Positions 46,101 through 52,974 of a stretch of DNA of 52,974 bases are shown in pieces. Location: IMG/VR virus record IMGVR_UViG_2802429234_000005, positions 1 through 52,974 of that record; one strand, written 5' to 3'. Position numbers: made by a program. This DNA is from a virus (taxonomy: Duplodnaviria > Heunggongvirae > Uroviricota > Caudoviricetes). The first letter of the stretch is position 1. Every line of letters begins with the position of its first letter.

Positions 46101-49100
46101 CGGTCACTGTGTACGATGACCAGGCTTTTGACCGTCAGATAGTAATCCCACCCGTTCTGTTTCGCGGTGGTAAGCATGAAAACTTCAACAGCAACAACCA
46201 ACAGTCATACTGGTATTCGACCTGTAAGCTGCAGGTACTGAAGAACGGACAGGAAATCTTTCAGCAACCCGCGACGGATGTCAGCAGGGTATTTTCATCT
46301 GTCATTGATATGCCTGCCGGACACGGTCATGTCACCCTGACTTTCAATGTTTCATCATATGGTGCTAATAACTGGACGCCAACGACCAGTATCAGCGACC
46401 TTCTTGTTGTCGTGATGAAGAAATCAACCGCTGGTATCAGTATCAGTTGAATTTTATAACCCAAATACGGGCGCCAGAAATGGCGCCTTTTTTATTTGTG
46501 GAGTGAATATGGCAGTACAGATTTCAGGCGTGCTGAAAGACGGTGCAGGAAAACCAATACAGAACTGCACTATTCAGCTCAAAGCAAAGCGTAACAGCAC
46601 CACGGTACTGGTGAACACGGTGGCCTCTGAAAATCCGGATGAAGCCGGGCGTTACAGCATGGATGTTGAGTATGGCCAGTACAGCGTCACCCTGCTGGTT
46701 GAAGGTTTTCCGCCTTCACATGCCGGGACCATTACCGTCTATGAAGGTTCCAGACCAGGTACGCTGAATGATTTTCTCGGTGCCATGACGGAAGATGATG
46801 TCATGCCGGAGGCATTGCGTCGTTTTGAGGCAATGGTGGAAGAAGCGGCACGCAACGCTGAAGCCGCCTCTCAGAGCGCAGCGGCGGCAAAGAAATCCGA
46901 AGCTGCTGCGGCATCATCGAAGAACGCGGCGAAAAGCTCAGAAACGAATGCAGCTAACAGCGCACAGGCGGCAGCGGCCTCACAGACTGCATCGGCAAAC
47001 TCCGCGACAGCAGCCAAAAAATCAGAAACCAACGCGAAAAACAGCGAGACAGCAGCGAAGACGAGCGAAACCAACGCAAAGTCCAGCCAGACGGCAGCAA
47101 AGACCAGCGAAACAAATGCCAAAGCCAGCGAAACTGCGGCGAAAAACAGCCAGGCTGCAGCAGCTGAAAGCGAGAGCGCAGCAGCCGGTTCTGCGACTTC
47201 AGCAGCTGGATCAGCAACTGCTGCGGCTAACAGCCAGAAAGCTGCGAAGGCGAGCGAAACTAACGCAAAGTCCAGCCAGACGGCAGCGAAGACCAGCGAA
47301 ACGAATGCCAAAGCCAGCGAAACTGCGGCGAAAAGCAGTCAGGATGCAGCAGCCGAAAGCGAGAGTGCTGCAGCTGGTTCTGCAAGCGCGGCGGCTGCTT
47401 CTGCCACTGCATCAGCTAACAGTCAAAAAGCAGCAAAAACCAGTGAAACCAACGCAAAGGTGAGCGAAACAGCGGCTGCGAACTCAGCGAAAGCATCGGC
47501 AGCAAGCCAGACGGCAGCTAAAGCAAGCGAAGATGCAGCCAGAGAGTACGCAAGCCAGGCTGCGGAGCCGTATAAATATGTCTTACAGCCGCTTCCCGAT
47601 GTGTGGATACCATTTAACGATTCACTGGATATGATTACGGGCTTTTCGCCATCATATAAAAGAATTGTTATTGGTGACGATGAAATAACGATGCCTGGCG
47701 ACAAGATTGTTAAATTTAAACGAGCGTCGAAAGCAACCTATATTAATAAATCTGGTGTGCTGACAGAGGCTGCCATTGACGAGCCACGATTTGAACGTGA
47801 TGGTCTGCTTATTGAGGGGCAAAGAACAAACTACATGCTCAATTCGGAAAACCCTGCCAGTTGGGGGCGATCGTCAAATATGGATGTTCCCGAAACCGGG
47901 ACGGATAGTTTTGGTTTTACCTATGGAAAGTTTGTCTGCAACGATTCTCTGATTGGGCAAACCTCAGCCATTAATATGGCATCAATTGCTGCAACAAAGT
48001 CAGTTGATGTCTCAGGCGATAATAAGTACGTGACAACATCATGTCGTTTTAAAACAGAACTGCAGGTAAGGTTGCGTATCCGGTTTGATAAATATGACGG
48101 TAGCGCAACAACTTTTCTTGGTGATGCGTATATTGATACACAAACGCTTGAAATTAATATGACAGGCGGCGCTGCCTCAAGGATTACAGCGAGAGTCAGA
48201 AAGGACGAAGCTACCGGATGGATTTTTGCAGAGGCAACAATTCAGGCAATTGATGGGGAGTTAAAAATAGGTTCCCAGATACAGTATTCTCCTAAGCAGG
48301 GCGGGGCAACCGTATCTGGTGACTATATTTATCTGGCCACCCCACAAGTAGAAAATGGGCCTTGTGTATCATCTTTTATTATATCAGGAACGACGGCGGT
48401 GACTCGTGCGAGTGATATGGTTACGATCCCGACCGAAAACAACATTTATAATAGACCGCTTACTTGTTTGGTCGAGGTTAACAGGAATTGGGGCGATATC
48501 CCCCCTAATGTAGCACCGCGTATTTTTGATTTTTCTGGTGTGCCGCCTATTGAGTCAATTACATACGCTTTTAACACAACCGAGAAATATTACGGTCAGC
48601 TTTATATGCAAACTTATAAAGCGTCGACAAGTACTTACGTTTCTAGTTTGTTTACTGGTCGAACTGATGTTCGAAAATTCATTGGTGGTTTTAATATTTA
48701 TTCTGATGGTACTAAACGAGTAGTTTCTAACGGTGAGGCTACTAAAACTATGAAAACGGAATGGACGGGCGTAAAAACGCGGACCTTTATTCGAATAGGA
48801 GGTCAAGCCACATCAGGGACACGTCATTTATTCGGCCATTTGAGAAATCTTCGTCTCTGGCATAAAGAATTAACTGATGCGCAAATGGGGGAGAGCATTA
48901 AATGAAAGATTTAACACTTAAATTTGCCGACAGGGCCGATTTTTCGGCCTTTATGGATAGCACTGGCTATTATGATGACGAGTCGATGCAGGATGATATT
49001 CTTATTGACGTGGTAGGTAACGTGTACAAAGAAACCGGAGAACTGAATGAAGATGGCGAACCGGTATGTGTTAAGGAAGACGGATATTTTGTAAACGTGC

Positions 49101-52100: not shown

Positions 52101-52974
52101 ATGGAAAAAACACAGCTGTGGCAAACGTGGCTGTCACTTGGGATTATCAGCGAAGCTGATAAAAAATTACTCAGGGAGTGGATGTTGTATGCCCAAAAAG
52201 TTGAAGCGACGGACACATCTGAATTACCTGTGAGATTTCCCGACAAACCTCTTATTGTGGGTGAGCTATCCGGTGCGTTGTAAAAATCCCATCTTTCATT
52301 GTGCCGGAAATACCAAATCGCCATTTATTAAAGCCCAATTAGTAGTCAGTTAGAGCAAGAAAAATAGCGGACTTCTGCTGAATAGTAAAAAAACCCCGTC
52401 TCCAGTACGTGATAACGAGGCCTGAAGCATGGATAACAGGACTCTACACAAAGACGGGGTAACATAATAATTCTGAACAAACATACTGACAAACGGGATA
52501 TTTCAATTAAAGACACAACGAGTACCAGGCGTACAGAGTGGATGTTGTGTCTGACAGGTGAGTTTACCGATAGCGCGATAAAATAAATCCCCTGTCACCA
52601 TTTATTGTAGAAATGTTTATCAGTCATGCTTATGAGATAAATACACAAGACGGGGTGAAAATTTGGCCTAAAACAAGGTCGGGATGAAAAGAGTCTTGTG
52701 CAGTTTTGCAGATGTAAAAAAACCGCAGACACGTCGTATGCAAGAACGTGCTGCGGTCGGCTGGTTAACTTTCGATAGTGCGAATATTGAATAATTTCCA
52801 GCCGGAATGGATTCTATTGGAAAGTATTCAGAGGTGCAATCTGCAGTTCACGAATTGAGTATTTTTAGGATTTTTATGGTGGCAAAAATGGGGCAAAACG
52901 CTGCAAAAGGGGCAGAAATGGGGCAAAAAAAGAGTTGGTTATCGTGGCTTGTTGTAGTCGCTGATTCAACTTAA

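What the first reader, a model, noticed from the sequence alone, without database searches (positions are those of the whole stretch)
46503..52283. Expanded tail-fibre locus with two paralogous Stf N-domains, a repeat-rich shaft and an intramolecular-chaperone fibre
After J there are four fibre-type genes: a fibre with Stf N-domain, Ala/Ser-rich tandem repeats and a non-lambda C-terminal domain (46503..48905); a small ORF; a fibre/spike-like protein with a C-terminal self-cleaving chaperone-type domain (49193..50233); and a second Stf with lambda-like C-terminus plus Tfa. The N-terminal ~100 aa of the two Stf genes are recognisably paralogous. This suggests modular receptor-binding exchange and possibly dual host-receptor specificity.
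Basis: partly seen in the sequence, partly recalled or inferred. Interest (0 to 1): 0.5.

Follow-up and report, generated by a model that had tools for sequence, protein, structure and literature searches.

The report
Mosaic three-fibre prophage tail locus
A lambda-like prophage of an Escherichia strain carries, after its central tail-tip gene, an intact operon for three different side-fibre proteins assembled from two modules already common in other phages; this combination is rare, but the parts are ordinary.

Summary
After J lie five tightly packed + strand genes.

- **Stf1** has a lambda-type collar domain (PF08400), a heptad Ala/Ser shaft and a GTA-head-spike-like C-domain.
- **orf93** is a 93-aa protein of an uncharacterised family.
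- **The 346-aa fibre** has a Peptidase_S74 self-cleaving chaperone.
- **Stf2** has a second PF08400 domain and a T4 gp37/lambda-like tip.
- **Tfa** follows Stf2.

The two Stf N-domains are 43% identical but belong to different clades, so they are not a local duplication.

The locus joins two known modules. Stf1-orf93-S74 is common in E. coli prophages and isolated phages such as Tritos, 2G7b and ESCO3, and its distal part recurs in T5-like, Dhillonvirus and rV5-like phages. Stf2-Tfa is normally the second fibre set of phiP27/Rac-SA53-type prophages, which use the same ttcA/uspF integration site.

The combined architecture is rare: 0 of 5426 complete E. coli genomes and 1 of 80 related IMG/VR loci.

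The likeliest mechanism is that Stf1 carries the S74 fibre as a branch through a conserved N-terminal motif, with Stf2 as an extra collar fibre. Co-assembly on one virion is unproven. Interest is modest.

The parts
43052..46450 (+). gpJ central tail fibre / tip attachment protein (context, upstream of the locus)
   Evidence: Six J-specific Pfam domains, E 1e-35 to 1e-43. The C-terminal 199 aa are 55% identical to lambda J.
46469..46488 (+). GC-rich hairpin plus T-run between J and stf1 (terminator-like)
   Evidence: Eight pairs, six of them GC, followed by TTTTTATTTG. A terminator is annotated at the same place in phage 21.
46509..48905 (+). Stf1, 798 aa (the ORF opens at GTG 46503; the likely start is ATG 46509 behind GGAG)
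   Evidence: phrog_1419 tail protein matches over the full length. RefSeq WP_105290221 is 798 aa. RBS context.
46509..46901 (+). Stf1 N-terminal collar domain (PF08400), lambda clade
   Evidence: PF08400 E 3e-67. Matches Ur-lambda StfN in PDB 9e7m at E 3e-50. 77% identical to lambda StfN.
46824..47564 (+). Ala/Ser-rich heptad-repeat shaft, a presumed trimeric coiled coil
   Evidence: TRF periods of 21, 42 and 189 nt. Direct-repeat families D1-D3. Residue autocorrelation peaks at multiples of 7, with 38% Ala and 19% Ser.
47565..48902 (+). Stf1 distal domain of about 445 aa, with a GTA-head-spike-fibre-like core at about 47808-48410
   Evidence: NF048003 GTA_spike_fiber E 7e-14, above cut-off. 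6tb9 Rcc01080 E 1.3e-14 with a profile. 40-73% identical to the fibre C-domains of phage 21, IrisVonRoten, KarlBarth and nimi.
48902..49183 (+). orf93, an uncharacterised partner of the Stf1 C-domain, translationally coupled to stf1 by an ATGA overlap
   Evidence: phrog_1361 E 1e-44. It lies immediately 3' of the same C-domain in lambdoid, T5-like, Dhillonvirus and rV5-like phages. The AF2 model has pLDDT 80 and shows a small alpha+beta fold with no informative fold match.
49193..50233 (+). Anchor-less fibre of 346 aa with a C-terminal intramolecular chaperone
   Evidence: phrog_4563 tail fibre over the full length. PF13884 E 1e-13. S16 gp37 C-terminus 6f45 E 0.002.
49193..49264 (+). Conserved N-terminal motif MATSTVIPDDIKTLKSDVSKLKNE, a candidate docking segment
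   Evidence: The same motif opens the gene after orf93 in IrisVonRoten and KarlBarth. tblastn also finds it in JenP1, swan01 and tinuso.
49871..50233 (+). Peptidase_S74 chaperone region starting at S227 (SDRDLK; Ser/Lys spaced by 5)
   Evidence: PF13884 at aa 227-278. Motif position.
50243..50440 (+). Unique low-GC joint segment (GC 0.34): the intergenic spacer plus Stf2 codons 1-54
   Evidence: No match in the loci compared, and it lies between the two homology blocks. GC. Residues 1-55 are only 40-53% identical to any other Stf2-clade protein examined.
50278..51681 (+). Stf2, 467 aa (the ORF opens at GTG 50248; the likely start is GTG 50278 behind GGAG)
   Evidence: PF08400 E 8e-46 and PF07484 E 2e-8. 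2xgf T4 gp37 tip E 2e-57. Five HxH motifs in the C-terminal tip. RefSeq WP_105290224 is 467 aa.
51678..52283 (+). Tfa tail-fibre assembly chaperone, coupled to stf2 by an ATGA overlap
   Evidence: PF02413 E 1e-28. phrog_105 E 3e-75. 48% identical to lambda Tfa.

Best explanation
This is the side-fibre end of the late operon of a Rac-family lambdoid prophage. The prophage is integrated at ttcA, next to uspF/ompN, in Escherichia sp. MOD1-EC6842. The locus is a recombinational composite of two ready-made adhesin modules.

Module A is Stf1, orf93 and the S74 fibre. Stf1 is inferred to anchor to the tail as lambda Stf does: twelve N-domains form a collar at the gpV/gpM junction and give four trimeric fibres. 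A heptad coiled-coil shaft then projects a variable, probably glycan-binding, GTA-head-spike-like distal domain. orf93 is a dedicated partner of that domain, acting either as an assembly factor or as an adaptor. The 346-aa protein has no tail anchor. It carries a short N-terminal motif that is conserved in the gene following orf93 in the other phage groups checked. It is therefore inferred to dock on Stf1/orf93 as a side branch. It would fold with the help of its S74 chaperone, which then cleaves itself off at about Ser227.

Module B is Stf2 and Tfa. It is a compact lambda/T4 gp37-type fibre with its own collar domain and chaperone, taken from the phiP27/Rac-SA53 lineage.

If all parts are assembled, the virion would carry J plus up to three different side adhesins.

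Shown here: gene content, domain identities, mosaic boundaries and distribution. Inferred: branching of the S74 fibre, the role of orf93 and co-assembly of Stf2.
For: Gene and domain identities:
-.

Operon structure:
- The genes are tightly coupled, with ATGA overlaps and 9-44 nt gaps, and the region has no inverted repeats.

Module A is a unit:
- J-Stf1-orf93-S74 is 91-94% identical in E. coli Qin-site prophages, and phage Tritos has the same layout with its Stf1 and S74 segments 95% and 91% identical.
- Stf1 aa 132-799 is 46% identical to the lateral tail fibre of the T5-like phage IrisVonRoten. There it is followed by an orf93 homologue and a second S74-bearing fibre that starts MVTKTVIP.DITKLKNE.
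- orf93 homologues always directly follow this C-domain, even where no second fibre exists, as in phage 21.
- The S74 N-terminal motif recurs downstream of orf93 in JenP1 and in Drexlerviridae.

Precedents:
- Branched LtfA/LtfB fibres in DT57C (PMC4728585, PMC10713586).
- The 12-mer StfN collar of Ur-lambda (PMC12617516).

Module B and its origin:
- 98.3% identical at the end of a P2-like prophage in mouse E. coli, and 98.8% identical to a Rac-SA53-like contig through to the window end.
- The Stf2-N clade follows a phiP27/Rac-SA53-type fibre+Tfa pair in about 55 of 61 IMG/VR loci.
- Rac-SA53 uses the same att site and has the same early-region layout.

Persistence of the architecture:
- The same five-gene arrangement is found at 99.9-100% identity in several assemblies and runs, and the same gene order in one IMG/VR contig, L088.
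Against: - No expression or virion data exist.
- The S74 gene is dispensable in relatives: 33 of 80 close loci go straight from orf93 to a membrane protein.
- Presence of the S74 gene and its N-terminal allele do not co-vary with the Stf1 C-domain allele, so there is no co-evolution signal for a contact.
- The S74 motif was not detectably similar to DT57C LtfB or phiEco32 gp15 (one search lists all 23 hits). The branched model is therefore an analogy.
- The Stf2-N clade is native to phiP27/Rac-SA53-type phages that encode a baseplate. It is only 43% identical to Stf1-N, and it would have to share or compete for a 12-site collar.
- The matching copies are nearly identical and may be one clone, so persistence under selection is not demonstrated.
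- The orf93 fold search gave nothing informative.
Confidence: 0.6

Rival explanations
1. Stf2-Tfa is a passenger left by an end-swap between two prophages that use the same ttcA/uspF attachment site: a lambda-tailed Rac relative and a Rac-SA53/phiP27-type one. The genes are intact, but Stf2 is not incorporated into this lambda-type tail. The working side fibre is Stf1, with or without S74.
For: - Homology of 98.8% to the Rac-SA53-like contig L009 runs from 50441 through Tfa and the 0.7 kb of non-coding DNA to the window end.
- Rac-SA53 occupies the same att site and has the same early genes.
- The Stf2-N clade is found almost only behind phiP27/Rac-SA53-type fibre sets.
- Only 2 of 294 phage records with a Stf-N match have two matching places.
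- Stf2-N, unlike Stf1-N, shows similarity to the neck collar spike of myophage XM1.
Against: - Both ORFs are full length, with an RBS and translational coupling.
- The first 54 codons were replaced in frame by a third-source allele that keeps the invariant PF08400 residues.
- Other lambdoid contigs also carry J + Stf1-N + an Stf2-clade gene. L061 looks intact; L074 is decaying.
- The PF08400 score is still strong, E 8e-46.
Confidence: 0.3
2. The S74 protein is not a branch on Stf1. It either attaches elsewhere on the virion on its own, or it is a spare 3' cassette that can be fused to an Stf shaft by recombination to make a single long fibre.
For: - phrog_6578 (a 1210-aa fibre) matches Stf1 aa 35-223 at its N-terminus and S74 aa 148-342 at its C-terminus. 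Single-chain versions therefore exist.
- In DT530 a deletion fused ltfA and ltfB into one ORF (PMC4728585).
- S74 is absent from 33 of 80 close loci, and truncated stubs occur.
Against: - The gene has its own RBS and start, 9 nt after orf93.
- Its first 24 or so residues are conserved in the same genomic position across unrelated phage groups while the rest differs. That is the pattern expected of a docking peptide.
- No nucleotide repeats link it to either stf gene.
Confidence: 0.2
3. The two Stf genes arose by tandem duplication within this prophage and then diverged at their C-termini.
For: Both carry PF08400 and align at E 3e-27.
Against: - Identity is only 43%, and no nucleotide similarity was detected between the two genes.
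- Each has much closer relatives elsewhere: Stf1-N is 97% identical to Tritos and 77% to lambda, and Stf2 is 98% identical to copies in other prophage types.
- GC content differs by segment.
Confidence: 0.03

Closest known systems
Ur-lambda side tail fibre Stf with Tfa (cryo-EM, PMC12617516; PDB 9e7m)
   Same: - Both Stf1 and Stf2 have the StfN collar domain (E 3e-50 and 1e-17 to 9e7m).
- Both have a coiled-coil shaft and lie after J.
- Stf2 also has the gp37-like HxH tip (45% identical) and a Tfa (48% identical).
   Different: - Lambda has one stf gene; this locus has two, from different N-domain clades.
- Stf1 replaces the gp37-like tip and Tfa with a GTA-spike-like domain and orf93.
- There is no lom between J and stf1.
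- The Stf2 tip is shorter than lambda's (59 gap positions in the alignment).
J-Stf-orf93-S74 fibre module of E. coli Qin/Rac-type prophages and of phages Tritos, HannyBb, 2G7b, PhiR63_1 and ESCO3
   Same: Same gene order and 91-97% identity over Stf1, orf93 and the S74 fibre.
   Different: In those genomes the S74 gene is followed by a 97-aa membrane protein, a tfa fragment and a Pin invertase. Here it is followed by a complete Stf2-Tfa pair, with no invertase or inverted repeats.
Lateral tail fibre locus of T5-like phage IrisVonRoten (Bas32), with the genetically inferred branched LtfA/LtfB fibres of DT57C as the functional precedent
   Same: - The shaft repeats and the 445-aa distal domain are shared (46% identity overall).
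- An orf93 homologue follows, then a second S74-bearing fibre that opens with the same N-terminal motif.
- In DT57C the second fibre is attached through the first (PMC4728585, PMC10713586).
   Different: - The tail anchor differs: a T5 Ltf N-terminus held by an LtfC ring, versus a PF08400 collar here.
- The DT57C docking motif (phiEco32 gp15-like) was not detected in this S74 protein.
- DT57C LtfA itself ends in a chaperone domain, whereas Stf1 does not.
Second fibre set of phiP27 (L56/L57) and Rac-SA53 (tail3/tail4)
   Same: Stf2-N is 68% identical to these. The position is the same, as the last two genes before attR, and a Tfa follows. Rac-SA53 uses the same ttcA/uspF site.
   Different: - In those phages the pair follows a baseplate-type fibre and Tfa, not a lambda J and Stf.
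- The distal parts differ: tail3 is 1061 aa.
- The first 55 residues of the window's Stf2 are a distinct allele.
RcGTA head spike fibre Rcc01080 (PDB 6tb9)
   Same: The core of the Stf1 distal domain is homologous (profile E 1.3e-14; NCBIfam GTA_spike_fiber above cut-off).
   Different: In RcGTA the domain sits on capsid vertices. Here it is the distal end of a tail fibre, and it is extended by a further conserved C-terminal region of about 150 aa.

Membership tests
Lambda-type side tail fibre (Stf) | N-terminal PF08400 'prophage tail fibre N-terminal' collar domain | tested here: met
   Stf1 E 3e-67 and Stf2 E 8e-46. PDB 9e7m StfN E 3e-50 and 1e-17.
Lambda-type side tail fibre (Stf) | Encoded downstream of J in a lambdoid tail operon | tested here: met
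   J lies at 43052-46450 with lambda-type tail genes upstream.
Lambda-type side tail fibre (Stf) | T4 gp37-like HxH tip plus an adjacent Tfa chaperone | tested here: met
   Met for Stf2: 2xgf E 2e-57, five HxH motifs in the tip, PF02413 Tfa. Not met for Stf1, which has a GTA-spike-like domain and orf93 instead.
Lambda-type side tail fibre (Stf) | Assembly as a 12-subunit collar at the gpV/gpM junction giving four trimeric fibres | not testable with these tools
   Known only for Ur-lambda (PMC12617516). It needs virion structure or multimer modelling.
Peptidase_S74 intramolecular-chaperone fibres (endosialidase, T5 pb1 type) | C-terminal PF13884 domain | tested here: met
   E 1e-13, aa 227-278, 51.6 bits against a cut-off of 22.
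Peptidase_S74 intramolecular-chaperone fibres (endosialidase, T5 pb1 type) | Catalytic Ser/Lys pair at the start of the domain | tested here: met
   S227-D-R-D-L-K232 lies at the first residues of the Pfam match. That the dyad is Ser plus a Lys five residues on is from my own knowledge of endosialidase.
Peptidase_S74 intramolecular-chaperone fibres (endosialidase, T5 pb1 type) | Autoproteolytic release of the chaperone after trimer folding | not testable with these tools
   Needs protein expression or virion mass spectrometry.
Branched lateral tail fibre (DT57C LtfA/LtfB type) | An anchored first fibre followed by an anchor-less second fibre gene | tested here: met
   Stf1 has PF08400. The S74 protein has no anchor domain.
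Branched lateral tail fibre (DT57C LtfA/LtfB type) | The second fibre's N-terminus is a conserved docking segment shared across phages with the same first-fibre module | tested here: met
   The motif is shared with IrisVonRoten, KarlBarth, JenP1 and Drexlerviridae, always after orf93.
Branched lateral tail fibre (DT57C LtfA/LtfB type) | Sequence homology of the docking segment to DT57C LtfB / phiEco32 gp15 | tested here: not met
   tblastn of S74 aa 1-90 against 50,697 phage records gave 23 hits, none of them DT57C or phiEco32. The locus may work like this family but is not filed as a member.
Branched lateral tail fibre (DT57C LtfA/LtfB type) | The second fibre depends on the first for incorporation into the virion | not testable with these tools
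   This is a genetic and proteomic test.
GTA head spike fibre domain | Match to the curated NCBIfam NF048003 model above cut-off, and to Rcc01080 | tested here: met
   52.7 bits against a cut-off of 36. 6tb9 E 1.3e-14.
Invertible tail-fibre segments (Mu G, P1 C, e14/Pin type) | Flanking inverted repeats and an adjacent Pin/Gin invertase | tested here: not met
   No inverted repeats of 18 nt or more in 46000-52974. No invertase ORF lies between Tfa and the window end. Relatives with pin lack Stf2.

The most novel reading that the evidence does not exclude
The two collar-domain fibres do not compete. Stf1 would form the lambda-type 12-mer collar at the tail tip. The divergent Stf2 N-domain is the only one of the two with detectable similarity to the neck collar spike gp40 of myophage XM1, and its first 55 residues are a unique allele. 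It would dock at a second site such as the neck, or build a hetero-collar. With the S74 branch, that would give a siphovirus three distinct side adhesins plus J. It would also show that PF08400 is a portable, site-switchable collar adaptor.
Probability: 0.12. Interest if true: 0.6.

Novelty: new member of a known kind. Interest (0 to 1): 0.28.

Why it matters
- Side fibres set adsorption rate and host range, and lambda Stf chimeras are used to retarget phage-derived delivery particles. This locus is a natural case in which two different PF08400 collar fibres and an anchor-less S74 fibre sit in one lambda-type operon.
- It offers a concrete test of how the 12-site StfN collar, resolved for Ur-lambda in 2025, handles two fibre species.
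- It also offers a test of how second fibres dock through the orf93-associated N-terminal motif shared with T5-like, Dhillonvirus and T1-like phages.
- orf93 remains an uncharacterised but widely conserved fibre partner.
- Beyond that, the locus is a routine example of tail-fibre mosaicism.

Tried and rejected
- AlphaFold2 of the Stf1 distal domain, using a 21-sequence alignment of 61-98% identity, failed (mean pLDDT 42). No fold search was run on it.
- Neither the profile search of orf93 against PDB sequences nor hhalign against Tfa found anything. orf93 is therefore not a Tfa-type chaperone by sequence.
- The single-sequence homologue search for orf93 listed only near-identical E. coli proteins among its best 120 of 216 hits. 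The profile search added only nine diverged sequences.
- Tandem duplication of stf was rejected.
- An invertible-segment mechanism was rejected: no inverted repeats and no invertase.
- The Rfam scan of 46000-52974 gave only one sub-threshold hit, CssrB at 24 bits against a gathering score of 76.
- I looked for co-variation between the S74 allele and the Stf1 C-domain allele across 80 IMG/VR loci and found none.
- No donor for the unique 198-nt Stf2 5' segment was found in IMG/VR or in the phage records.
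Full report
**What is in the sequence**

Five + strand ORFs follow J (43052-46450) with almost no spacing.
- Stf1: 46503/46509-48905
- orf93: 48902-49183
- a 346-aa fibre: 49193-50233
- Stf2: 50248/50278-51681
- Tfa: 51678-52283

stf1/orf93 and stf2/tfa overlap by ATGA, and orf93 is 9 nt from the next start. A GC-rich hairpin with a T-run lies between J and stf1, where phage 21 has an annotated terminator. The region has no inverted repeats of 18 nt or more, and no invertase ORF appears in the ORF list for the region. 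The likely starts are ATG 46509 and GTG 50278. Each is preceded by GGAG, and they match the RefSeq lengths of 798 and 467 aa.

**Domain checks**

Stf1:
- PF08400 at E 3e-67.
- The N-domain matches the Ur-lambda StfN chain 9e7m at E 3e-50.
- The shaft is 38% Ala and 19% Ser, with strict 7-residue periodicity and DNA repeat periods of 21, 42 and 189 nt. This fits the coiled-coil proximal rod seen in Ur-lambda (PMC12617516).
- The distal ~445 aa are not lambda-like. They match NCBIfam GTA_spike_fiber above its cut-off.
- They also match the RcGTA head spike fibre Rcc01080 at E 6e-7 for the single sequence and 1.3e-14 for a five-phage profile.

The 346-aa protein:
- PF13884 Peptidase_S74 at E 1e-13.
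- An S227-DRDL-K232 motif lies at the start of the domain.
- It has no tail-anchor domain.

Stf2 and Tfa:
- Stf2 has PF08400 (E 8e-46) and PF07484.
- Its tip matches T4 gp37 at E 2e-57, carries five HxH motifs, and is 45% identical to the lambda Stf C-terminus.
- Tfa has PF02413 and is 48% identical to lambda Tfa.

**Where the window comes from**

The window is a Rac-family prophage. ttcA and intR lie at the left end, and uspF/ompN/ydbK lie just beyond the right end in the identical contig PTRF01000007.1 of Escherichia sp. MOD1-EC6842.

**The two Stf N-domains are not a duplication**

They are 43% identical. Stf1-N is 77% identical to lambda and 97% to phage Tritos. Stf2-N belongs to another clade whose nearest phage relatives, at 68%, are phiP27 and Rac-SA53.

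In 61 IMG/VR loci with this clade:
- about 55 place it directly after a phiP27/Rac-SA53-type fibre+Tfa pair, usually with a Rac-SA53-like baseplate gene upstream;
- one places it after a P2 gpD homologue;
- only two place it after J plus a lambda-type Stf.

Across 50,697 phage records, 294 have a Stf-N match in 296 places, so at most two records have two matching places.

**Module A: Stf1, orf93 and the S74 fibre**

- J-Stf1-orf93-S74 occurs at 91-94% identity in many E. coli prophages at the Qin site.
- Phage Tritos has the same gene order, and its relatives HannyBb, 2G7b, PhiR63_1 and ESCO3 match the module at 94-96% identity. In the Qin-site prophages and in Tritos a 97-aa membrane protein and a Pin invertase follow.
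- The distal domain plus orf93 is a conserved pair across unrelated phages: phage 21 (which has no second fibre), T5-like IrisVonRoten, Dhillonvirus KarlBarth and rV5-like nimi.
- Stf1 aa 132-799 is 46% identical to the IrisVonRoten lateral tail fibre.
- The distal domain is found behind different anchors (PF08400, PF12571+PF03406, or none), and 2577 proteins scored E <= 1e-5 among the 8000 candidates scored.
- Among the 80 IMG/VR loci with 89-99% identical orf93, the distal domain ranges from 43 to 98% identity. This pattern suggests a variable receptor-binding part next to a conserved partner. 47 of these loci carry the S74 gene and 33 do not.
- The first ~24 residues of the S74 protein (MATSTVIPDDIKTLKSDVSKLKNE) recur at the start of the gene after orf93 in IrisVonRoten (MVTKTVIPTDITKLKNE) and KarlBarth. 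tblastn also finds them in JenP1 and in T1-like phages, while the rest of those proteins differs.
- That is the signature of a docking peptide. It parallels the genetically inferred branched LtfA/LtfB fibres of DT57C (PMC4728585, PMC10713586) and the BASEL observation that multi-protein lateral fibres share only far N-termini (PMC8594841).
- It is an analogy only, because the DT57C/phiEco32 motif itself was not detected.
- orf93 remains unassigned. Its model (pLDDT 80) is a small alpha+beta fold with no informative structural neighbour and no similarity to Tfa.

**Module B and the joints**

- Homology to the Tritos/Qin type stops at 50242, nine bases after the S74 stop.
- From 50441 to the window end the sequence is 98.8% identical to a Rac-SA53-like contig, L009. 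There the same Stf2-Tfa pair follows a baseplate-type fibre+Tfa.
- From 50488 to 52249 it is 98.3% identical to a pair sitting at the end of a P2-like prophage in mouse E. coli.
- The intervening 198 nt have a GC of 0.34. They encode Stf2 residues 1-54 as a distinct allele, 40-53% identical to any other clade member examined, that keeps the invariant PF08400 positions.
- Rac-SA53 integrates at the same ttcA/uspF site and has the same early-gene layout. Recombination between prophages sharing a site is therefore a ready source of the right end.

**Rarity**

No complete E. coli genome (0 of 5426) has the whole 6-kb locus in one place. One of the 80 IMG/VR loci, L088, has the same order. Several assemblies and runs carry it at 99.9-100% identity, possibly as one lineage.

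**Mechanism and confidence**

- The composition of the locus and its modular origin are well supported.
- Stf1 forming a lambda-type collar is a strong inference from 77% identity to a solved domain.
- The S74 protein riding on Stf1/orf93 is a reasonable inference from the conserved motif and synteny.
- Stf2 being built into the same virion is open.
- The main rival is that Stf2-Tfa is an intact passenger from an end-swap.
- A small chance remains that Stf2 uses a different site. Its N-region, unlike that of Stf1, shows similarity (E 2e-6) to the XM1 neck collar spike, six trimers of which bind the neck.

**Verdict**

The finding is real and correctly described, but it is made of known parts, and all five proteins are already in RefSeq under generic names. 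The unusual points are the rare pairing of two collar-domain fibres in a lambda-type operon and the uncharacterised orf93/docking-motif system, which is widespread and not specific to this window.

Noticed in passing
window 50243-50440: A 198-nt segment with GC 0.34 sits between two homology blocks. It encodes the first 54 codons of Stf2 as an allele with no close relative in IMG/VR or in the phage records examined (40-53% identity).
   Followed up: partly
window 52876-52929: A short tandem repeat, ATGGGGCAAAA in about 5 copies, lies in the non-coding stretch between tfa and the prophage right end. Its purpose is unknown.
   Followed up: no
window 19045-19930: Three prophage-borne tRNA genes: Thr (TGT), Gly (TCC) and an 82-nt tRNA called Tyr with the unusual anticodon ATA (ARAGORN).
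   Followed up: no
window 46451-46508: There is no lom gene between J and stf1, unlike lambda and contig L061. Only a terminator-like hairpin is present.
   Followed up: partly
L061 2-9346 (IMGVR_UViG_643348551_000006): A second, apparently intact lambdoid contig has two collar-domain fibres: J, Lom, a 958-aa Stf, then an Stf2-clade gene (618-aa ORF) and a Tfa-like ORF. L074 has a similar but decaying arrangement.
   Followed up: partly
L115, L137, L147 (IMG/VR): In three loci only the N-terminal ~90 aa of the S74 fibre remain after orf93, followed by the 97-aa membrane protein. KarlBarth has a comparable 98-aa protein bearing the same N-terminal motif.
   Followed up: no
L004 7797-9793 (E. 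coli RSHH22) and L076: The same Stf2-Tfa pair sits after gpD at the very end of a P2-like prophage that already has its own fibre and Tfa. The pair therefore behaves as a portable add-on cassette at prophage ends.
   Followed up: partly
window 1-7186 compared with L020 (Rac-SA53): The left arm (ttcA, intR, then large minus-strand ORFs of 350 and 1047 aa where Rac-SA53 has recT and recE) has the same layout as the LT-IIa-encoding prophage Rac-SA53. The tail genes, however, are lambda-type rather than baseplate-type, so Rac-site prophages swap whole structural modules.
   Followed up: partly
window 52613-52755: A weak, sub-threshold Rfam match to the Shigella sRNA CssrB (24 bits against a gathering score of 76). 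Probably chance.
   Followed up: no
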